27,110 nucleotides of DNA. Origin: a virus (taxonomy: Duplodnaviria; Heunggongvirae; Uroviricota; Caudoviricetes). Positions 332-8,503 of this stretch are shown here, in pieces. The translations under genes and the position numbers were made by a program. The stretch lies in IMG/VR virus record IMGVR_UViG_2579778745_000003, positions 1-27,110 of that record, one strand, 5' to 3'. The first letter of the stretch is position 1. The number at the start of each line of letters is the position of its first letter. A model generated the notes under the pieces. That model saw nothing but the letters and a program-made list of their open reading frames with translations. It was not told the origin of the DNA and did no database searches.

Positions 332-370
332 GCTGTAAGCCGCGCCATTTCTGGCCTGAAATGGGATCAA

Positions 371-477
371 CATTGACTATACGCGATTTTATGTTGACTG
401 TGCACGATTTATTGTTGACTGCACGCGATTTATTGTTGACTATACGCGACAGAAACATTGACTGTACGCGATTTTAG
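371..477 (+). repeat. Origin iterons (incC-like): five direct repeats of about 17 bp, core TTGACT(A/G)T(A/G)CGCGATTT
   Basis: TTGACT cores at 373, 394, 415, 436 and 458, i.e. 21-22 bp spacing (two helical turns), immediately upstream of repA. Confidence 0.85.
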
Positions 478-551
478 AGCCTGACTATTCACAGTTGTTG
501 ATAACTGCAATCCAGATGACGCCAGGCCGCGCCACATATGGAGAAACCACG

Positions 552-1436
552 ATGCCGGAAGAAAATAAAGGCTTCCTTAGCGTTGAAGAAGTTGCTGGAA
601 ATACAGGAGAAATCCACAGCCTGAAACCCAATAACAATAGCACTATACAACCCATCGCTTTGTTGCGCTTAGGTGTGTTTGTGCCAACCTTAAAATCTAC
701 CAATGTGGCACTACGTCGCGGATCGTCAGTTACTACAAACACAACGAACGCAACCGAAGAACTATCAAGCCTCAAAATTGTTGAGCAGGAAGGCTATGAG
801 GGAATTGAAATTCATGGTCCACGCCTGGATATGGATACTGATTTTAAGGTGTGGGTGGGCATAACCTCCGCGTTGTTTGACTACGCACCTGATGATGACG
901 GTATAATCACCCTGCCATTCTCCGAGTTTGCCGATCGATGCGGCTATCCACGTAAGCGCCTTTCAAAGGCGTTCCGTAAAAGTATTGATGATTCTCTGAC
1001 ACGCATTCAGCAGACAGTTGTCAAATTCCGCTTCCCGGCGGCAAAAGGTCATCTCAATAACATTAACGTCAACTTGTTGGCATATAGCAGCCTGAATACC
1101 GAGCTTGATGTTATCGAGATCCAGCCGCAGAAACAGCTATCTGAACTTTACTATGTTGACTATAAGCGAATCCTGAAGCTGAAGATGCTGGATAAGCTCG
1201 GGCGCAAAGAGACGGCCAAGGTACTGTATACATTCTTTGAGGCTCTACCCGCCAACCCGGCACCTGTCAGCATTGAGCGCCTTAGAGCAAGGCTTAATCT
1301 CAAATCATCCGTTAGCGTGCAAAATAGCGTTATCAGAAAAGCCATGAAAGATTTAGAAGCTATTGAATATCTTAAATTTTCAGAGATAAAAAACGGCAGG
1401 AAAATCGGCTTCCAGATCCATAAGCGCAATCCATAA
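552..1436 (+). CDS. repA: Iteron-binding replication initiator RepA (P1 RepA family, divergent). ORF track starts at TTG 495; I prefer ATG 552, which has a GGAGA 7 nt upstream
   Basis: Flanked on both sides by iteron arrays; the segment NNNSTIQPIALLRLGVFVP resembles what I recall of P1 RepA; gene order ori-repA-incA-parAB matches P1. Confidence 0.8.
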   Translation: MPEENKGFLSVEEVAGNTGEIHSLKPNNNSTIQPIALLRLGVFVPTLKSTNVALRRGSSVTTNTTNATEELSSLKIVEQEGYEGIEIHGPRLDMDTDFKVWVGITSALFDYAPDDDGIITLPFSEFADRCGYPRKRLSKAFRKSIDDSLTRIQQTVVKFRFPAAKGHLNNINVNLLAYSSLNTELDVIEIQPQKQLSELYYVDYKRILKLKMLDKLGRKETAKVLYTFFEALPANPAPVSIERLRARLNLKSSVSVQNSVIRKAMKDLEAIEYLKFSEIKNGRKIGFQIHKRNP

Positions 1437-1700
1437 TATTGACTATATGCGATAGCGAGAAGTTGACTATAGGCGACATTCATTGACGCTGGTGGATTTT
1501 TGCTGGAGTCAATATTCTGCAAGTCGCTATTGAGATGGCTTTTAGGGTCATTTCATCGCGTATAGTCAACGTTTCTCCCGACAATATCTTACATAGTCGA
1601 TCTTTGGTGGAGTTAAATCGACTACAGTCAACTTTTGACTGTAGTCACATCGCGCATAGTCAACTATTCACATTAACCTTCGCGCATAGTCAACATTTGC
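1437..1700. repeat. incA-like copy-control iteron array, about nine copies in mixed orientation
   Basis: TTGACT cores on + at 1439, 1463, 1483 and 1635; reverse-complement AGTCAA cores at 1507, 1564, 1626, 1658 and 1688; degenerate copies at 1605 and 1643; CGCGCATAGTCAAC repeated exactly at 1651 and 1681. Confidence 0.8.
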
Positions 1701-1728: not shown

Positions 1729-2538
1729 ATGCAAGAAGAGAAACAACACTACCTCTACGTTCTGGTGCCAGAGAACGGAGATACTTTTAAAATCGGCATT
1801 TCATGTGGTCCATTGGCACGGTTTAAAGGGCTACAAGTGAGTCCCGATTTTGCGCTTTCACGGGTCTATCGTGGTACACGTTTGGCAATGGTTAATCTTG
1901 AGCGGGCTTTACACGCAACCTTTTTCCCCTGGAATGCGCCGTGGGAGAAAAGCGTCGGTGGCGGGCATACTGAATGGTTTACACGAGAGTGTCTTGATAA
2001 GGTTTTGGCTCATATCGAATATCTAAATGATATGTGGGGAGGGATTCTCGAGCGCATTAAGTCGAATGATTTACTTCAGCGTCCAGTAGATGCTGCTTGC
2101 TCTTTCGAAAAAGAGCTGGATGTTACTTCTATCGTGACTTTCAAAGATGACGCAGGAATGAGGGACGTGGCTTATGTCTCCATATCTGGCTATGAACCGG
2201 ACGCGATCCGCGCTCAATGTGAATTGCTGAAAGCAATGTTTATGCTTCGGACTAAATATCCCTGGGATACAGGGCGGGTGTGCTTCCCTATGGAAGAGTT
2301 AACCGCCACCATTGATTCCCAGCTTTACCACGATAATCCAGAGAAGTTTTTTAGCCTTTTAGCCGGTAATGGGCTTAACTGTGTGTCCGGGCTGGGGCGA
2401 AGTAGAATCCAACATGCCTCGCTCTTCGGTCCCTTCTTTTACGATCGACACGGGTACTTTGAGGCTGAACTTCCGGCGCTTACGCGTGCTATAGATACTA
2501 TCGATTTCGAACGATTATTCGCTGCTCTTAGCAAATAA
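1729..2538 (+). CDS. Protein with an N-terminal T5orf172 / GIY-YIG-like domain (269 aa); C-terminal 170 aa unassigned
   Basis: N-terminus reads YLYVLVPENGDTFKIGIS...LERALHATF...GGGHTEWF, matching the T5orf172 motif pattern (YVY, KIG, ExxLH, EWF) as I recall it. Confidence 0.55.
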   Translation: MQEEKQHYLYVLVPENGDTFKIGISCGPLARFKGLQVSPDFALSRVYRGTRLAMVNLERALHATFFPWNAPWEKSVGGGHTEWFTRECLDKVLAHIEYLNDMWGGILERIKSNDLLQRPVDAACSFEKELDVTSIVTFKDDAGMRDVAYVSISGYEPDAIRAQCELLKAMFMLRTKYPWDTGRVCFPMEELTATIDSQLYHDNPEKFFSLLAGNGLNCVSGLGRSRIQHASLFGPFFYDRHGYFEAELPALTRAIDTIDFERLFAALSK

Positions 2539-2545
2539 CACTGAT

Positions 2546-2568
2546 GCCCCTGAACGGGGCTTTTTTGT
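2546..2568 (+). terminator. Rho-independent terminator (GCCCC-TGAAC-GGGGC followed by TTTTTT)
   Basis: GC stem-loop followed by a T6 tract directly after the stop at 2538. Confidence 0.65.
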
Positions 2569-2599
2569 GCCTTTCTTGTAACTCTCAATCGTGCAAAAT

Positions 2600-2700
2600 G
2601 AACCAAACATGCAGAGAATGCTATGTACAAGCATCTACGCATACATTATTATTTTATGCAGCATTTTTAATTAAATTCAAAAATACAGCATAAAGGATGA
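2600..2700 (+). promoter_or_regulatory. Putative par promoter/operator: AT-rich region with imperfect palindrome AATGCTATGTACAAGCAT (2617-2634) and flanking ATGCAG repeats
   Basis: Palindromes read upstream of parA; P1 ParA autoregulates through an inverted-repeat operator over its promoter. Confidence 0.4.
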
Positions 2701-2706
2701 CTTTCG

Positions 2707-3903
2707 ATGAGTGATTCCAGCCAGCTTCACAAGGTTGCTCAAAGAGCAAACAGAATGCTCAATGTTCTGACTGAACAAGTACAGTTGCAAAAGGATGAGC
2801 TACACGCGAACGAGTTTTACCAGGTCTATGCGAAAGCGGCACTGGCAAAATTGCCTCTACTGACTCGAGCGAACGTTGACTATGCCGTAAGTGAAATGGA
2901 AGAAAAGGGTTATGTTTTCGATAAACGCCCTGCTGGCTCTTCAATGAAATATGCGATGTCAATTCAGAACATCATTGACATATATGAACATCGCGGAGTG
3001 CCAAAATACCGGGATCGCTACAGCGAAGCGTATGTGATTTTCATCTCCAATCTTAAAGGCGGTGTGTCAAAAACTGTATCGACGGTTTCTCTGGCGCATG
3101 CAATGCGTGCCCACCCTCATCTTCTGATGGAAGATTTAAGGATTCTGGTTATTGACCTTGATCCGCAATCTTCAGCAACGATGTTTTTAAGCCATAAACA
3201 CTCTATTGGTATCGTAAACGCAACATCTGCACAGGCTATGTTGCAGAATGTAAGCCGTGAAGAGCTGTTAGAGGAGTTTATTGTTCCTTCTGTTGTACCT
3301 GGGGTTGACGTTATGCCTGCGTCGATTGACGATGCCTTTATTGCATCCGATTGGAGAGAGCTGTGCAATGAGCATCTACCGGGTCAGAACATCCATGCTG
3401 TCCTGAAAGAAAATGTGATTGATAAGCTGAAGAGCGATTATGACTTTATCCTCGTTGATAGTGGTCCTCACCTTGACGCCTTCCTGAAAAATGCTTTGGC
3501 CTCGGCCAATATACTGTTTACACCTCTGCCGCCAGCAACTGTCGATTTCCACTCATCGCTTAAATACGTTGCCCGCCTTCCTGAGTTGGTAAAACTCATT
3601 TCGGATGAAGGCTGCGAGTGCCAGCTTGCGACTAACATTGGTTTTATGTCCAAGTTGAGTAACAAGGCAGATCATAAGTATTGCCATAGCCTGGCTAAAG
3701 AAGTGTTCGGTGGGGATATGCTTGATGTCGTCCTCCCTCGCCTTGACGGTTTTGAACGCTGCGGCGAGTCTTTTGACACTGTTATTTCAGCTAACCCGGC
3801 AACGTATGTTGGTAGTGCTGATGCATTGAAGAACGCGCGAATTGCCGCGGAAGATTTTGCTAAAGCAGTTTTTGACCGTATTGAATTTATCAGATCTAAC
3901 TGA
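2707..3903 (+). CDS. parA: Partition ATPase ParA, type Ia (Walker-type with N-terminal HTH), 398 aa
   Basis: Deviant Walker A KGGVSKT; length and sequence match my memory of P1 ParA; AAGGA RBS; followed by parB and parS. Confidence 0.93.
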   Translation: MSDSSQLHKVAQRANRMLNVLTEQVQLQKDELHANEFYQVYAKAALAKLPLLTRANVDYAVSEMEEKGYVFDKRPAGSSMKYAMSIQNIIDIYEHRGVPKYRDRYSEAYVIFISNLKGGVSKTVSTVSLAHAMRAHPHLLMEDLRILVIDLDPQSSATMFLSHKHSIGIVNATSAQAMLQNVSREELLEEFIVPSVVPGVDVMPASIDDAFIASDWRELCNEHLPGQNIHAVLKENVIDKLKSDYDFILVDSGPHLDAFLKNALASANILFTPLPPATVDFHSSLKYVARLPELVKLISDEGCECQLATNIGFMSKLSNKADHKYCHSLAKEVFGGDMLDVVLPRLDGFERCGESFDTVISANPATYVGSADALKNARIAAEDFAKAVFDRIEFIRSN

Positions 3904-3919
3904 GGAGTAAGAAACCCCC

Positions 3920-4921
3920 ATGTCAAAGAAAAACAGACCAACAATTGGGCGAACCCTTAATCCTTCAATATTAAGCGGATTTGATAGTTCTTCAGCCTCT
4001 GGCGATCGAGTCGAGCAGGTATTCAAGTTATCAACTGGTCGCCAGGCCACATTTATTGAAGAGGTAATACCTCCGAACCAGGTAGAAAGCGATACCTTTG
4101 TTGATCAGCATAACAACGGGCGTGACCAGGCATCTCTTACGCCAAAATCATTAAAAAGTATCCGAAGCACTATTAAGCATCAGCAATTTTACCCTGCAAT
4201 AGGTGTTAGACGGGCTACAGGGAAAATTGAAATTTTGGATGGTTCCCGGCGTCGAGCTTCTGCCATCTTAGAGAACGTAGGGTTGCGGGTTTTAGTCACG
4301 GACCAGGAGATCAGCGTTCAGGAAGCGCAAAATTTAGCGAAAGACGTTCAGACAGCATTGCAGCACAGCATTCGAGAAATAGGTCTGCGTTTGATGCGAA
4401 TGAAAAATGATGGGATGAGTCAGAAGGATATTGCAGCCAAAGAAGGGCTGTCTCAGGCGAAGGTCACGCGTGCTCTCCAGGCAGCGAGTGCTCCGGAAGA
4501 ATTAGTCGCCCTTTTCCCTGTTCAGTCGGAATTAACCTTTTCGGACTACAAAACGCTTTGTGCTGTTGGCGACGAAATGGGGAACAAGAATTTAGAGTTT
4601 GATCAGCTTATTCAAAACATATCCCCGGAAATAAACGACATCTTATCCATTGAAGAAATGGCCGAAGATGAAGTTAAAAATAAAATCCTGCGCTTGATAA
4701 CAAAGGAAGCCTCACTACTCACGGATAAAGGTTCTAAAGATAAGTCCGTAGTTACTGAATTATGGAAATTTGAGGACAAGGATCGCTTTGCAAGGAAGCG
4801 CGTGAAAGGCCGTGCATTTTCTTATGAGTTTAATCGACTTTCAAAAGAGCTACAGGAAGAACTCGACAGGATGATTGGGCATATCCTTAGAAAGAGCCTC
4901 GATAAAAAGCCGAAGCCTTAA
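3920..4921 (+). CDS. parB: Centromere-binding protein ParB, 333 aa
   Basis: Length and sequence match my memory of P1 ParB; position between parA and parS. Confidence 0.93.
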   Translation: MSKKNRPTIGRTLNPSILSGFDSSSASGDRVEQVFKLSTGRQATFIEEVIPPNQVESDTFVDQHNNGRDQASLTPKSLKSIRSTIKHQQFYPAIGVRRATGKIEILDGSRRRASAILENVGLRVLVTDQEISVQEAQNLAKDVQTALQHSIREIGLRLMRMKNDGMSQKDIAAKEGLSQAKVTRALQAASAPEELVALFPVQSELTFSDYKTLCAVGDEMGNKNLEFDQLIQNISPEINDILSIEEMAEDEVKNKILRLITKEASLLTDKGSKDKSVVTELWKFEDKDRFARKRVKGRAFSYEFNRLSKELQEELDRMIGHILRKSLDKKPKP

Positions 4922-4925
4922 ACTT

Positions 4926-5008
4926 TCGCCATTCAAATTTCACTATTAACCAACTGTTTTTAAAGTAAATCTATCTAAAATTTCAAGGTGAAATCGCCAC
5001 GATTTCAC
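4926..5008. promoter_or_regulatory. parS: parS centromere: box B TCGCCA (4926, 4994), box A ATTTCAC (4937, 5002; inverted at 4988) flanking an AT-rich IHF-like core
   Basis: Hexamer and heptamer motifs read directly in the P1 parS arrangement B-A-[IHF]-A(inv)-B-A. Confidence 0.8.
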
Positions 5009-5146
5009 CTTGGATTTTACCTTCCTCCCCTACTCCCGAAAAAAATAAAAAAATTGCTTGTCACGAGAAAGTCAACAAGTGACTTTCAATAAAATCTCTT
5101 CCGAAAAGGGATTCACACAAGTGCCTTGTGTTTAAGGAAGAGTAAA

Positions 5147-6853
5147 TTGAGTAACTTACGCGAATACCAGAATCGTATTGCAGATATCGCAAAACGCTCT
5201 AAAGCTGTGCTTGGCTGGGCAAGCACTGCGCAGTTCGGTACTGATAACCAATTCATTAAAGATGATGCCGCGCGTGCCGCATCTATCCTTGAAGCTGCAC
5301 GTAAAGACCCGGTTTTTGCGGGTATCTCTGATAATGCCACCGCTCAAATCGCTACAGCGTGGGCAAGTGCACTGGCTGACTACGCCGCAGCACATAAATC
5401 TATGCCGCGTCCGGAAATTCTGGCCTCCTGCCACCAGACGCTGGAAAACTGCCTGATTGAGTCCACCCGCAATAGCATGGATGCCACTAATAAAGCGATG
5501 CTGGAATCCGTCGCAGCAGAGATGATGAGCGTTTCTGACGGTGTTATGCGTCTGCCTTTATTCCTCGCGATGATCCTGCCTGTTCAGTTGGGGGCAGCTA
5601 CCGCTGATGCGTGTACCTTCATTCCGGTTACGCGTGACCAGTCCGACATCTATGAAGTCTTTAACGTGGCAGGTTCCTCTTTTGGTTCTTATGCTGCTGG
5701 TGATGTTCTGGACATGCAATCCGTCGGTGTGTACAGCCAGTTACGCCGCCGCTATGTGCTGGTGGCAAGCTCCGATGGCACCAGCAAAACCGCAACCTTC
5801 AAGATGGAAGACTTCGAAGGCCAGAATGTACCAATCCGAAAAGGTCGCACTAATATCTACGTTAACCGTATTAAGTCTGTTGTTGATAACGGTTCCGGCA
5901 GCCTACTTCACTCGTTTACTAATGCTGCTGGTGAGCAAATCACTGTTACCTGCTCTCTGAACTACAACATTGGTCAGATTGCCCTGTCGTTCTCCAAAGC
6001 GCCGGATAAAGGCACTGAGATCGCAATTGAGACGGAAATCAATATTGAAGCCGCTCCTGAGCTGATCCCGCTGATCAACCACGAAATGAAGAAATACACC
6101 CTGTTCCCAAGCCAGTTCGTTATCGCGGCTGAGCACACGGTACAGGCGGCGTATGAAGCACAGCGTGAATTTGGTCTGGACCTGGGTTCCCTACAGTTCC
6201 GCACCCTGAAGGAATACCTGTCTCATGAACAGGATATGCTGCGTCTTCGCATCATGATCTGGCGTACTCTTGCGAACGACACCTTTGACATCGCTCTGCC
6301 GGTTAACCAGTCCTTTGATGTATGGGCAACCATCATTCGTGGCAAATTCCAGACTGTATATCGCGACATTATTGAGCGCGTTAAATCTTCTGGTGCGATG
6401 GGGATGTTTGCTGGTGCTGATGCAGCATCTTTCTTCAAACAGTTGCCGAAGGATTTCTTCCAGCCAGCCGAAGACTATATCCAGACTCCGTATGTTCACT
6501 ACATCGGTACCCTGTTCGGTAACGTGAAAGTGTACGAAGTACCTGCTGGTATTTGTAAGAACTTAACGACAGAGAACATTCAGTTCAGCTCGATGGATGT
6601 GCTGTGCTACGTCCGTGATGAAAATCCGGGTAAAGCAGGCTTCGTGACTGGTGATGCTGTCCCGGCCATCCCGTTCCAGCATCCGACCACTCCGGCGCTG
6701 GTCAACCGTACCACGCTGTGGGGTTCGGCTATCAACGATATGCACCCACGCAACGGCGCTGATTACTTCACTCGTGTAACGCTGACAATGGCCAAAAAAG
6801 GCGGGCTTAACTTCATTAGCGGCGACACGATTGATGCCGGTGACTCTGAGTAA
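5147..6853 (+). CDS. Major capsid protein candidate (P1 gene 23-like). ORF track start is TTG 5126; I prefer TTG 5147 after AAGGAAG
   Basis: Position right after parS as in P1; large protein; first late gene with its own upstream region. Functional assignment rests on synteny. Confidence 0.5.
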   Translation: MSNLREYQNRIADIAKRSKAVLGWASTAQFGTDNQFIKDDAARAASILEAARKDPVFAGISDNATAQIATAWASALADYAAAHKSMPRPEILASCHQTLENCLIESTRNSMDATNKAMLESVAAEMMSVSDGVMRLPLFLAMILPVQLGAATADACTFIPVTRDQSDIYEVFNVAGSSFGSYAAGDVLDMQSVGVYSQLRRRYVLVASSDGTSKTATFKMEDFEGQNVPIRKGRTNIYVNRIKSVVDNGSGSLLHSFTNAAGEQITVTCSLNYNIGQIALSFSKAPDKGTEIAIETEINIEAAPELIPLINHEMKKYTLFPSQFVIAAEHTVQAAYEAQREFGLDLGSLQFRTLKEYLSHEQDMLRLRIMIWRTLANDTFDIALPVNQSFDVWATIIRGKFQTVYRDIIERVKSSGAMGMFAGADAASFFKQLPKDFFQPAEDYIQTPYVHYIGTLFGNVKVYEVPAGICKNLTTENIQFSSMDVLCYVRDENPGKAGFVTGDAVPAIPFQHPTTPALVNRTTLWGSAINDMHPRNGADYFTRVTLTMAKKGGLNFISGDTIDAGDSE

Positions 6854-6879
6854 TCAGGGGAAGTTCTCCGTTTAACATA

Positions 6880-6898
6880 GCGCCCCCGTGCGGGGCGC
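6880..6898 (+). other. Intercistronic GC-rich hairpin (GCGCCCC / GGGGCGC) with no U-tract
   Basis: Inverted repeat between the capsid-like and sheath-like genes. Confidence 0.4.
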
Positions 6899-6913
6899 AT
6901 AACAGGGAAAGTT

Positions 6914-8503
6914 ATGTCTCAATATTCAATTCAACAGTCATTAGGTAATGCATCCGGCGTCGCGGTTAGCCCGATCAATGCCGATGCGACGTTATCTACC
7001 GGTGTTGCATTAAATAGCAGCTTATGGGCTGGTATTGGCGTATTTGCGCGTGGCAAGCCGTTTACTGTTCTTGCGGTTACTGAGTCCAATTACGAAGATG
7101 TTCTCGGCGAACCGCTGAAGCCGTCTTCCGGCTCACAGTTCGAACCAATTCGCCATGTATACGAAGCTATTCAGCAAACGTCTGGTTATGTTGTTCGCGC
7201 TGTTCCGGATGATGCGAAGTTCCCGATTATTATGTTCGATGAATCAGGCGAACCGGCTTACAGTGCGTTGCCATACGGTTCTGAAATTGAACTTGATAGT
7301 GGCGAAGCCTTTGCTATCTACGTTGATGATGGTGATCCGTGTATTTCACCTACCCGTGAGTTAACCATCGAAACGGCAACAGCGGACAGCGCGGGTAATG
7401 AACGCTTCCTCTTAAAACTGACCCAGACGACTTCGCTCGGCGTGGTAACGACCCTGGAGACACACACTGTGTCTTTGGCGGAAGAAGCGAAAGATGACAT
7501 GGGCCGCTTGTGTTATCTGCCTACGGCTCTGGAAGCCCGTTCTAAATATCTGCGCGCGGTTGTTAATGAAGAGCTGATTTCGACAGCGAAAGTAACAAAC
7601 AAAAAATCGTTGGCGTTCACTGGCGGTACCAACGGCGATCAGTCGAAAATCTCAACCGCTGCGTACCTGCGTGCGGTTAAAGTGCTGAATAATGCGCCGT
7701 ACATGTACACCGCTGTTCTTGGCTTGGGCTGCTATGACAATGCGGCTATCACCGCATTAGGTAAAATCTGTGCAGATCGCCTGATTGATGGCTTCTTTGA
7801 TGTCAAACCGACATTGACGTACACGGAAGCGATCTCTGCTGTTGAAGATACCGGTTTACTTGGTACCGATTATGTAAGCTGTGCTGTCTATCACTACCCG
7901 TTCTCCTGCAAAGACAAATGGACCCAATCCCGTGTGGTCTTTGGTCTGTCTGGCGTGGCGTATGCGGCGAAAGCTCGTGGCGTCAAGAAAAACTCTGATG
8001 TCGGCGGTTGGCATTACTCACCGGCTGGTGAAGAACGTGCCGTCATTGCTCGTGCGTCAATTCAACCGCTGTATCCGGAAGATACCCCGGACGAAGAAGC
8101 AATGGTCAAGGGCCGTCTCAATAAAGTATCTGTTGGCACCTCTGGCCAGATGATCATCGACGATGCTTTAACTTGCTGCACGCAGGATAACTATCTGCAC
8201 TTCCAGCACGTCCCATCCCTGATGAATGCAATCAGCCGTTTCTTTGTCCAGTTAGCCCGACAGATGAAGCATAGCCCGGACGGTATTACTGCGGCTGGCC
8301 TGACTAAAGGGATGACCAAACTTTTAGATCGCTTTGTCGCCTCCGGCGCTCTGGTGGCTCCTCGTGATCCTGATGCTGACGGTACAGAACCGTATGTGCT
8401 GAAAGTTACGCAGGCGGAATTCGATAAATGGGAAGTAGTCTGGGCCTGCTGCCCGACTGGCGTAGCCCGTCGTATCCAGGGCGTACCGCTGCTTATTAAG
8501 TAA
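6914..8503 (+). CDS. Contractile tail sheath protein candidate (P1 gene 22-like), 529 aa
   Basis: Size and position in the late operon; AGGGAAAG RBS. Identity by synteny only. Confidence 0.45.
   Translation: MSQYSIQQSLGNASGVAVSPINADATLSTGVALNSSLWAGIGVFARGKPFTVLAVTESNYEDVLGEPLKPSSGSQFEPIRHVYEAIQQTSGYVVRAVPDDAKFPIIMFDESGEPAYSALPYGSEIELDSGEAFAIYVDDGDPCISPTRELTIETATADSAGNERFLLKLTQTTSLGVVTTLETHTVSLAEEAKDDMGRLCYLPTALEARSKYLRAVVNEELISTAKVTNKKSLAFTGGTNGDQSKISTAAYLRAVKVLNNAPYMYTAVLGLGCYDNAAITALGKICADRLIDGFFDVKPTLTYTEAISAVEDTGLLGTDYVSCAVYHYPFSCKDKWTQSRVVFGLSGVAYAAKARGVKKNSDVGGWHYSPAGEERAVIARASIQPLYPEDTPDEEAMVKGRLNKVSVGTSGQMIIDDALTCCTQDNYLHFQHVPSLMNAISRFFVQLARQMKHSPDGITAAGLTKGMTKLLDRFVASGALVAPRDPDADGTEPYVLKVTQAEFDKWEVVWACCPTGVARRIQGVPLLIK

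What the first reader, a model, noticed from the sequence alone, without database searches (positions are those of the whole stretch)
1729..2538. T5orf172/GIY-YIG-like protein wedged between the plasmid replicon and the partition operon
The 269-aa protein carries the T5orf172 signature pattern (YLYVL...KIGIS...LERALHATF...GHTEWF) in its first 100 residues, followed by an unassigned 170-aa region. It has its own terminator at 2546-2568. This domain family occurs in nuclease-like and phage-defence contexts, and its placement in the core maintenance region means it would be inherited with the plasmid. It may correspond to an uncharacterised P1 upf gene at this position; I cannot confirm that.
Basis: partly seen in the sequence, partly recalled or inferred. 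Interest (0 to 1): 0.5.

Follow-up and report, generated by a model that had tools for sequence, protein, structure and literature searches.

The report
Replicon-edge nuclease of P1-like phage-plasmids
A real, widespread but uncharacterised gene of P1-like phage-plasmids encodes a T5orf172 (GIY-YIG-type) nuclease joined to a domain predicted to fold like a plasmid replication initiator; it sits at the edge of the swappable replication cassette, is absent from P1 itself and is often mutated, so it looks like a selfish or competitive nuclease, not a maintenance gene.

Summary
ORF 1729-2538 (+) encodes 269 aa. Residues 8-85 hit Pfam T5orf172 above the curated cut-off, all family-invariant residues are present, and a terminator follows at 2546-2568.

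The suggestion that it is a P1 upf gene is wrong. P1 has only incA iterons here. The window is a p0111/SJ46-type P1-like phage-plasmid.

An exhaustive search of 1.84 billion proteins found three other full-length relatives (44, 27 and 25% identity). All sit in the same slot: repA, incA-type iterons, this gene, then Ppar-parA.

The gene is the last gene of a replicon cassette that has been exchanged between backbones. Homology resumes 63-84 bp after its stop codon.

At least five independent inactivating mutations occur in 50 loci, against none in repA, parA or parB. No defence-system profile matches.

Best reading (confidence about 0.4): a homing-endonuclease-like or Odn-like nuclease acting on related replicons.

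The parts
355..371 (.). Left edge of the replicon cassette. P1-like identity (87%) ends at about 355; the origin iterons begin at 371.
   Evidence: blastn of window against P1; iterons
371..471 (+). Five origin iterons (consensus TGTTGACTATACGCGA, 21-22 bp spacing); equivalent of incC/oriR
   Evidence: family D1
552..1436 (+). repA, Rep3-family initiator of the p0111 type. The ORF list starts at TTG 495; the conserved start is ATG 552 (294 aa, as annotated in RefSeq).
   Evidence: It is 43% identical to P1 RepA, 83% to L003 RepA and 85% to the L008 (pNCYU-26-73-5) RepA.
1437..1698 (.). incA-like control iterons: two in origin orientation (1437-1452, 1461-1476) and four inverted (1556-1574, 1618-1636, 1650-1668, 1680-1698). 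The last one ends 30 nt before the ORF's ATG.
   Evidence: The same arrangement (last iteron 25-35 nt before the ATG) is seen in L003, L004 and L005, which carry different iteron sequences.
1729..2043 (+). N-terminal T5orf172 / GIY-YIG-fold nuclease domain (aa 1-105). Conserved residues: Y10, K21-I22-G23, R31, E58, H62, E82-W83-F84.
2044..2109 (+). Linker between the domains (aa 106-127); low model confidence over 117-127
2110..2538 (+). C-terminal domain (aa 128-269) plus stop codon. It is an orphan by sequence, fast-evolving and acidic (pI about 5.1). It is predicted as a winged-helix core (H157-175, E183-187, H188-194, H198-211, E215-220, E227-231) whose best structural matches are Rep-initiator WH1 domains.
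2546..2568 (+). Intrinsic-terminator-like hairpin with a T-run after the ORF
2605..2706 (+). Right edge of the cassette. From 2605 onward the window is 99.4% identical to P1 (the Ppar promoter/operator region upstream of parA).
2707..4921 (+). parA (2707-3903) and parB (3920-4921), 100% identical in protein to P1 ParA and ParB

Best explanation
The gene encodes an accessory, self-interested DNA endonuclease attached to the plasmid-replicon cassette of P1-like phage-plasmids.

Proposed anatomy:
- The N-terminal T5orf172 (GIY-YIG-fold) domain is the catalytic part.
- The fast-evolving C-terminal domain is predicted to fold like the WH1 domain of iteron-plasmid Rep initiators and supplies targeting.
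- Targeting could work by recognising origin/iteron-region DNA. Given the domain's acidic character, docking onto a Rep initiator bound there is also possible.

Proposed action:
- When two related phage-plasmids meet in one cell, the nuclease cuts the rival element in or near its replicon.
- This destroys a partition-incompatible competitor, provokes recombinational repair that copies the nuclease gene and its linked replicon cassette into the rival, or both.
- This corresponds to the behaviour of a free-standing homing endonuclease or of the ICP1 origin-directed nuclease Odn.
- Once fixed in a lineage the gene has no targets left and decays.

Shown here: domain identity, conserved catalytic-type residues, fixed genomic slot, position at the cassette boundary, presence/absence polymorphism, fast C-domain divergence, recurrent inactivation.

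Inferred: nuclease activity, the target, and the consequences of cleavage.
For: 1. Nuclease domain
- The T5orf172 hit is above the Pfam cut-off.
- G23, R31, E58 and E82 are invariant, and Y10, K21, I22, H62, G79, T81 and F84 are at least 90% conserved, across 141 relatives.
- These residues are also invariant in the four family members that are 25-44% identical.
- E58 aligns with Odn E180. The E180A mutation abolishes Odn cleavage (PMC8263062).

2. Fixed slot
- All four full-length homologues found among 1.84e9 representative proteins lie between the incA-type iterons and Ppar-parA of P1-like elements.
- The ATG lies 25-35 nt after the last iteron in all four, despite three different iteron sequences.

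3. Exchange boundary
- Window against P1: 99.4% identity begins 67 bp after the stop codon.
- L003 against L004: the backbones are 96-98.6% identical on both sides of a non-homologous cassette that ends 84 and 63 bp after the stop.
- T5orf172 genes sitting at boundaries of genetic exchange is a published pattern (PMC10448857).

4. Presence/absence at one site
- L004 has a RepA 83% identical to P1 RepA and carries the gene; P1 does not. The difference is a clean indel between incA and Ppar.
- pNCYU-26-73-5 has the window-type replicon without the gene.

5. Fast C-domain evolution
- Window against L003: RepA 83%, ParA 89%, N-domain 64%, C-domain 32% identical.
- DNA homology disappears exactly over 2042-2645.

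6. Rep-like C-domain
- The top Foldseek hits are the same proteins; the best has probability 0.90.
- Among relatives of the N-domain, Rep3_N/Rep3_C is the commonest partner domain.

7. Dispensability and decay
- At least five independent inactivations occur in 50 loci, against none in repA, parA or parB.
- Polymorphic codons (synonymous-only: amino-acid-changing) are 25:31 for this gene, 44:4 for repA and 50:1 for parA.
Against: - No cleavage site, target or activity is known.
- The whole protein is acidic (pI about 5.5) and so is its C-domain (pI about 5.1, net charge -4 to -10 in all four homologues). RepA has pI 9.3. This is untypical of a sequence-specific DNA-binding module.
- The Rep-WH1 resemblance is at fold level only, from a model with mean pLDDT 73 built on five sequences. 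No Foldseek hit reaches E<=0.001.
- Profile comparisons with RepA and with the Rep3 parts of fusion proteins are negative.
- Within the p0111 lineage the gene accompanies essentially every replicon (399 against 402 plasmid records), so ongoing homing is not observed.
- The P1/p0111 junction could stem from a single old recombination event.
- No independent promoter was found. The promoter scan found no more hits than in shuffled sequence.
- A more distant relative of the N-domain sits in a chromosomal neighbourhood that looks like a defence island.
Confidence: 0.4

Rival explanations
1. Stand-alone anti-phage or anti-MGE defence nuclease carried as cargo. It would cut incoming foreign DNA, or the host's DNA in an abortive response, and so protect the lysogen.
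For: - A relative of the N-domain (P0013, Cupriavidus) lies among Mrr_cat, WYL/WCX and Hypoth_Ymh genes.
- Fast evolution and frequent loss are also typical of defence genes.
- The gene is present in 412 of 5,426 complete E. coli genomes.
Against: - No PADLOC model matches, and NCBIfam gives nothing.
- There are no partner genes; the neighbours are repA and parA.
- The full-length family is confined to a single slot in one kind of element. It does not move between defence islands.
- A Rep-like C-domain and travel with the replicon cassette are not explained by this reading.
Confidence: 0.15
2. Domesticated replication or copy-number accessory. The WH1-like domain pairs with RepA or with iteron complexes to modulate initiation or handcuffing, or it processes DNA structures at the origin. 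The nuclease fold would serve a housekeeping role for the plasmid or act only as a scaffold, as in the T5orf172-derived repressor CapR.
For: - The gene has a constant position directly after the incA-type iterons in four diverged replicons.
- No separate promoter or terminator lies between repA and the gene, so co-transcription with repA is possible.
- The fold resembles the Rep WH1 domain, which is the Rep dimerisation module.
- The acidic domain would suit binding to basic RepA.
- There is a precedent for a domesticated T5orf172 protein (CapR; PMC10448857).
Against: - P1 and pNCYU-26-73-5 replicate with closely related RepA proteins (83% and 85% identical) and have no such gene.
- At least five independent knock-outs persist in natural plasmids.
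- The C-domain is only 32% identical between replicons whose RepA proteins are 83% identical and whose iterons are nearly the same. This argues against tight co-adaptation with its own RepA.
- All catalytic-type residues are retained.
Confidence: 0.2
3. Decaying passenger. The gene is a former mobile nuclease gene that hitch-hikes with the successful p0111 replicon and has no present function.
For: - About one fifth of sampled loci carry stops, a frameshift or an IS insertion.
- Among polymorphic codons, amino-acid-changing ones (31) outnumber synonymous-only ones (25).
Against: - Open reading frames of full length, with all conserved motif residues, persist in four lineages that have diverged to 25-44% identity.
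- Within the lineage, pN/pS is about 0.3 and not 1.
- 39 of 47 full-length ungapped copies (of 50 loci sampled) are intact.
Confidence: 0.1

Closest known systems
ICP1 Odn (gp88), the origin-directed nuclease of a Vibrio phage (PMC8263062)
   Same: - It has a T5orf172 catalytic domain, and the required glutamate (E180) aligns with E58 here.
- The nuclease is joined to a module related to a replication initiator.
- It acts in conflicts between mobile elements whose replicon modules are swapped.
   Different: - The domain order is reversed. Odn has its DNA-binding part at the N-terminus.
- Odn's DNA-binding part is clearly homologous in sequence to PLE RepA_N (42% identity; the Pfam copy used here matches that region to DUF6945). 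Here the resemblance is to Rep3-type WH1, at predicted-fold level only.
- The domain here is acidic.
- Odn is encoded by a lytic phage against a satellite. This gene sits inside a plasmid replicon next to its own iterons.
- The target here is unknown.
Free-standing GIY-YIG / T5orf172 homing endonuclease genes of phages (I-TevI and the T4 seg genes, from general knowledge; ICP1 T5orf172 HEGs, PMC10448857)
   Same: - It is a small stand-alone gene between conserved essential genes.
- It lies at a boundary of genetic exchange.
- It is present or absent at one site in otherwise collinear genomes.
- It has a nuclease domain, a linker and a variable targeting domain.
- Degenerate copies occur.
- The N-terminal position of the catalytic domain is as in I-TevI.
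   Different: - About 87% of T5orf172 HEGs carry CapR/DUF723/DUF4397 zinc-finger DNA-binding domains. None is present here.
- The protein is acidic.
- Neither homing nor any cleavage site has been shown.
- The host is a plasmid prophage replicon, not a lytic phage genome.
T5orf172-Rep3 fusion proteins (P0017, P0047, P0118; uncharacterised metagenomic proteins)
   Same: They belong to the same N-terminal T5orf172 subfamily (E 1e-9 to 2e-4 against the family profile). The nuclease is followed by a Rep initiator WH1 domain, with or without WH2.
   Different: Their Rep3 domains are recognisable by Pfam. The C-domain here is not. Their function and genomic context are unknown.
SLX1 / HIGLE structure-specific GIY-YIG nucleases
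   Different: They are eukaryotic and work with an SLX4 partner and a RING/PHD domain. The match probably reflects only the shared GIY-YIG fold.

Membership tests
T5orf172 domain family (Pfam PF10544, GIY-YIG clan) | Profile match above Pfam's gathering score | tested here: met
   26.9 bits against a cut-off of 20, E=6.9e-6, residues 8-85. 135 of the 141 closest relatives also match.
T5orf172 domain family (Pfam PF10544, GIY-YIG clan) | Conserved motif residues: YxY, KIG, Arg, ExxLH, and Glu in TEWF | tested here: met
   Y8/Y10, K21-I22-G23, R31, E58, H62 and E82-W83-F84 are all present. G23, R31, E58 and E82 are invariant in 141 relatives. E58 aligns with Odn E180.
T5orf172 domain family (Pfam PF10544, GIY-YIG clan) | GIY-YIG alpha/beta fold | tested here: met
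T5orf172 domain family (Pfam PF10544, GIY-YIG clan) | Metal-dependent DNA cleavage | not testable with these tools
   Needs biochemistry.
Canonical GIY-YIG catalytic domain (Pfam PF01541) | Profile match | tested here: not met
   PF01541 is not listed even at E<=1. Only 1 of the 141 relatives matches it. The RefSeq name 'GIY-YIG nuclease family protein' therefore holds at clan or fold level only.
Free-standing homing endonuclease gene | Presence/absence polymorphism at one site between otherwise collinear genomes | tested here: met
   P1 (absent) against L004 (present), whose RepA proteins are 83% identical. The indel lies between incA and Ppar.
Free-standing homing endonuclease gene | Position next to essential genes and at a recombination boundary | tested here: met
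   The gene lies between repA/iterons and parA. Homology between cassette variants resumes 63-84 bp after the stop codon in two backbone comparisons.
Free-standing homing endonuclease gene | A sequence-specific DNA-binding domain | tested here: inconclusive
   The C-domain is predicted as a winged helix. However, it is acidic, has no basic recognition helix and matches no DNA-binding family by sequence.
Free-standing homing endonuclease gene | Cleavage of the allele that lacks the gene, followed by gene conversion | not testable with these tools
   Needs co-infection or co-residence crosses.
Odn-like origin-directed nuclease | Targeting domain homologous to a replication initiator's DNA-binding domain | tested here: inconclusive
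Odn-like origin-directed nuclease | Iteron-dependent cleavage of an origin | not testable with these tools
   Needs in vitro nuclease assays.
Known anti-phage defence systems (PADLOC-DB 2.0) | Match to a defence-protein profile | tested here: not met
   0 families at E<=1.
   In NC_005856 the repA-parA interval holds the incA iterons and Ppar only; upfA is upstream of oriR. No remnant of the gene is detectable in the P1 spacer.
Rep3 initiator WH1 domain (Pfam PF01051) | Profile match | tested here: not met
   None of the four C-domains gives a Pfam hit at E<=10. The resemblance is structural only.

The most novel reading that the evidence does not exclude
The protein is a 'Rep-mimic' weapon of plasmid-against-plasmid conflict. 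Its WH1-like domain mimics or docks onto the initiator of a rival (or cognate) iteron replicon and so brings a T5orf172 nuclease to that origin. The cut eliminates a partition-incompatible P1-like competitor and drives replacement of its whole ori-repA-incA cassette by gene conversion. This would make it a homing-type element whose cargo is a plasmid replicon. It would also explain the IncY/p0111 replicon dimorphism of P1-like phage-plasmids.
Probability: 0.2. Interest if true: 0.75.

Novelty: new variant of a known kind. Interest (0 to 1): 0.5.

Why it matters
P1-like phage-plasmids are common carriers of resistance genes in E. coli and Salmonella. This gene is present in 412 of 5,426 complete E. 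coli genomes. The only mention found in the searched papers calls it an 'unknown protein'.

If it is an active nuclease aimed at related replicons, it would give a mechanism for two things:
- the wholesale swapping of replicon cassettes between P1-like backbones (IncY against p0111);
- exclusion between co-infecting phage-plasmids.

It would also extend the Odn principle, a T5orf172 nuclease joined to an initiator-like module, from one Vibrio phage-satellite pair to enterobacterial plasmids. The hypothesis can be tested with standard P1 genetics and mini-replicons.

Tried and rejected
- P1 upf gene: rejected by the P1 annotation.
- Sequence similarity of the C-domain to its own RepA: BLASTP found nothing. 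hhalign against a six-member RepA alignment gave probability 0.2%. hhalign against the Rep3 parts of T5orf172-Rep3 fusions gave 0.5%.
- C-domain against PDB sequences: best E 0.28. Against Pfam: nothing.
- First AlphaFold run on a three-sequence alignment: too poor to use (pLDDT 50). Its Foldseek hits were all non-significant.
- Remnant of the gene in the P1 incA-Ppar spacer, or downstream of repA in pNCYU-26-73-5: only chance-level tblastn matches.
- Truncated protein clusters P0002 and P0003, at first taken for pseudogenes: both lie at contig ends. They were not counted as inactivations.
- Search for an independent sigma-70 promoter in 1437-1728: none on the + strand, and the number of promoter-like sites in the region is no higher than in shuffles.
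- Wider family members: the GTDB species representatives gave one locus. IMG/VR gave 43 loci, all 91-100% identical by best-matching segment. PLSDB and the phage collection hold no 25-45% relatives in P1-like elements.
- Alignment A2 was too diverse for a locus search.
- Literature searches linking P1-like phage-plasmids with GIY-YIG, or GIY-YIG with iteron plasmids, found nothing beyond the Odn paper.

Full report
**1. The observation.**
The ORF at 1729-2538 (+) exists, starts with ATG and encodes 269 aa. Pfam T5orf172 (PF10544) matches residues 8-85 at 26.9 bits, above the cut-off of 20 (E = 6.9e-6). MUG113 and Tox-URI2 are below threshold, and the canonical GIY-YIG model PF01541 is not hit. 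PHROGs holds a full-length family of unknown function (phrog_2876) and gives a weaker match to an 'endonuclease' family. PADLOC and NCBIfam give nothing. A GC-rich hairpin with a T-run follows at 2546-2568 (dG -11.9 kcal/mol, z = -2.7). The description is therefore correct.

**2. What the window is, and the P1 question.**
The region is 99-100% identical to SJ46, JL22, RCS47 and several hundred plasmids in which RefSeq names the gene 'GIY-YIG nuclease family protein'. These are P1-like phage-plasmids with the p0111 replicon. [quoted passage not shown] In P1 itself, the interval between repA and parA holds the nine incA iterons, a spacer and Ppar, with no ORF, and upfA lies upstream of oriR.

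In the window, five origin iterons lie at 371-471. Six more fill the repA-ORF spacer: two direct at 1437-1476 and four inverted at 1556-1698. The last iteron ends 30 nt before the ATG.

**3. A tiny family in a fixed slot.**
Word-indexed searches of 5.8e9 proteins and an exhaustive HMMER search of 1.84e9 cluster representatives were run. They found only three other full-length relatives:
- P0004 (44% identical);
- P0009 (27%, Salmonella);
- P0011 (25%, faecal metagenome).

About 150 further hits match only the N-terminal ~100 residues. All three relatives lie in the same position of P1-like elements: repA, then iterons, then the gene, then parA-parB. The P1-type neighbours (PAAR-motif protein, RdgC, the double methylase) are present around them. 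In all four loci the ATG follows the last iteron by 25-35 nt, although three unrelated iteron sequences are involved.

**4. The edge of a swappable cassette, and an indel.**
- Window against P1: 87% identity ends at about 355, and 99.4% identity starts at 2605, which is 67 bp after the stop codon.
- L003 against L004: the backbones are 94-98.6% identical, but the stretch from the origin iterons to 84 and 63 bp after the stop codon shows no homology.
- So the unit [ori iterons - repA - incA iterons - this gene] has been exchanged between backbones at least twice, and this gene is its last gene.
- L004 has a RepA 83% identical to P1 RepA and carries the gene, whereas P1 does not. The difference is an indel between incA and Ppar, and no remnant is detectable in P1.
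- Conversely, pNCYU-26-73-5 is a different phage-plasmid whose RepA is 85% identical to the window's. It has the downstream iterons but no such gene.
- Within PLSDB the p0111 replicon (399 records) and the gene (402 records) are almost perfectly linked.

**5. Evolutionary behaviour.**
Between the window and L003, RepA is 83% identical and ParA 89%. The N-domain is 64% identical and the C-domain only 32%. DNA homology vanishes exactly over 2042-2645. Between L004 and L005, the only DNA homology inside the cassette is the N-domain, at 75.8%.

Inside the p0111 lineage, pN/pS is about 0.3 for this gene, 0.00-0.04 for repA and 0 for parA.

The figures for the 50 sampled loci are below. 'Intact' counts full-length ungapped copies with an open reading frame. 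'Synonymous-only' and 'amino-acid-changing' count polymorphic codons.

| Gene | Intact | Synonymous-only | Amino-acid-changing |
|---|---|---|---|
| repA | 49/49 | 44 | 4 |
| parA | 43/43 | 50 | 1 |
| parB | 48/48 | 73 | 18 |
| this gene | 39/47 | 25 | 31 |

The gene has suffered at least five independent inactivations:
- Q228* in SJ46;
- S112* shared by five loci;
- W68*;
- a frameshift near codon 41 in an E. albertii plasmid;
- an IS605/TnpB-type insertion with a 229-bp deletion.

Two truncated protein clusters turned out to be contig-end artefacts and were not counted. The gene is thus dispensable for plasmid and phage functions. Even so, it has kept a full ORF and all motif residues through divergence down to 25% identity.

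**6. The protein.**
G23, R31, E58 and E82 are invariant in 141 relatives, and Y10, K21, I22, H62, G79, T81 and F84 are at least 90% conserved. E58 aligns with E180 of ICP1 Odn. The E180A mutation abolishes Odn cleavage in vitro and in vivo (PMC8263062).

Foldseek ranks the same proteins first (best E 0.035, probability 0.90), but none reaches E<=0.001. The secondary-structure order 157-231 is that of a winged helix.

At sequence level nothing is detectable against RepA, the PDB, Pfam or the Rep3 parts of fusion proteins. Among relatives of the N-domain, the commonest partner domains are Rep3_N and Rep3_C; P0017, P0047 and P0118 are examples.

One caution applies. The protein is acidic (pI about 5.5) and its C-domain more so (pI about 5.1, net charge -4 to -10 in all four homologues), whereas RepA has pI 9.3. 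This fits a protein-docking WH1-like module better than a classical DNA-binding domain.

**7. Interpretation.**
The anatomy matches published behaviour of T5orf172 genes. They act as free-standing homing-endonuclease genes that sit beside essential genes and at boundaries of genetic exchange (PMC10448857). In Odn, such a nuclease is joined to an initiator-derived module and cuts a rival element's origin (PMC8263062).

I therefore favour a selfish or competitive nuclease aimed at related replicons, with confidence 0.4. Activity, target and outcome are inferred, not shown.

The rivals are:
- a defence nuclease (0.15). A Cupriavidus relative lies in a neighbourhood that looks like a defence island, but there is no PADLOC hit and the family occupies a single fixed slot;
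- a domesticated replication accessory that interacts with RepA (0.2). This fits the position, the possible co-transcription with repA and the acidic WH1-like domain. Natural knock-outs, replicons that lack the gene, and the poor co-variation with RepA argue against it;
- a functionless passenger (0.1).

**8. Novelty and score.**
The gene is annotated but uncharacterised. No paper in the searched library links P1-like phage-plasmids with a GIY-YIG or T5orf172 nuclease.

In kind it is a T5orf172 nuclease, but it differs in three ways:
- an unusual architecture: N-terminal catalytic domain plus an orphan, predicted Rep-WH1-like, acidic C-domain;
- an unusual home: the edge of a plasmid replicon cassette;
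- high prevalence: 7.6% of complete E. coli genomes.

I rate it a new variant of a known kind, with interest 0.5.

Noticed in passing
window 1154-1169: An iteron-like sequence (TGTTGACTATAAGCGA, 94% match to the origin iteron) lies inside the repA coding region.
   Followed up: no
window 1469-1442 (- strand): A promoter-like site (TAGTCA-16-TATAGT) lies within the first two downstream iterons and reads back toward repA, so it could drive an antisense transcript. The total number of promoter-like sites in the region is no higher than in shuffled sequence.
   Followed up: no
window 495-552: The mechanical ORF for repA starts at TTG 495. The conserved start, also used by RefSeq, is ATG 552, giving 294 aa.
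   Followed up: partly
L008 (CP042620.1, pNCYU-26-73-5) 4195-5652: A 93.6-kb phage-plasmid that is not arranged like P1 carries the same replicon type: its RepA is 85% identical and the downstream iterons are present. The replicon is followed by tail genes on the other strand. It has no nuclease gene and no adjacent par operon.
   Followed up: partly
L035, L036, L038, L039, L040 (codon 112 of the gene; window equivalent 2062-2064): The amber allele S112* (TCG to TAG) is shared by 5 of 50 loci. It cuts the protein in the linker between the two domains, so a stand-alone 111-aa nuclease domain could still be made. RefSeq annotates such copies as 'hypothetical protein | GIY-YIG nuclease family protein'.
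   Followed up: partly
L054 4295-6057: A 1.76-kb insertion encoding an IS605/IS200-family TnpB-like protein replaces nt 295-523 of the gene.
   Followed up: partly
L006 1-76; L007 end; L056 end: Draft assemblies repeatedly break inside this gene: protein clusters P0002 and P0003 have 205 and 229 member sequences, and their representatives (the only members examined) lie at contig ends. In L006 the first 76 nt of the contig do not match the window. This may point to repeat or IS insertions, or to co-resident variants.
   Followed up: partly
L004 7065-7295 vs L005 5157-5387: The nuclease N-domain shares 75.8% DNA identity between two cassettes whose RepA proteins are only 43% identical and show no DNA homology. 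This suggests the N-domain has been exchanged between cassettes, or is under strong constraint.
   Followed up: no
L009-L012 (PLSDB typing): MOB-suite types these p0111 P1-like plasmids as replicon 'IncHI1B', which conflicts with the PlasmidFinder name p0111 used in the literature.
   Followed up: no
E. coli complete genomes: Seven of the 421 matching places are on chromosomes, not plasmids. Some records hold only part of the gene, for example H159 (nt 553-810) and H106 (aa 99-269).
   Followed up: no
L058 (Cupriavidus nantongensis CP168302.1) 1799-7983: The distant N-domain relative P0013 lies among genes for an Mrr_cat/Zn-ribbon protein, a WYL/WCX protein and a Hypoth_Ymh protein. This neighbourhood looks like a defence island.
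   Followed up: no
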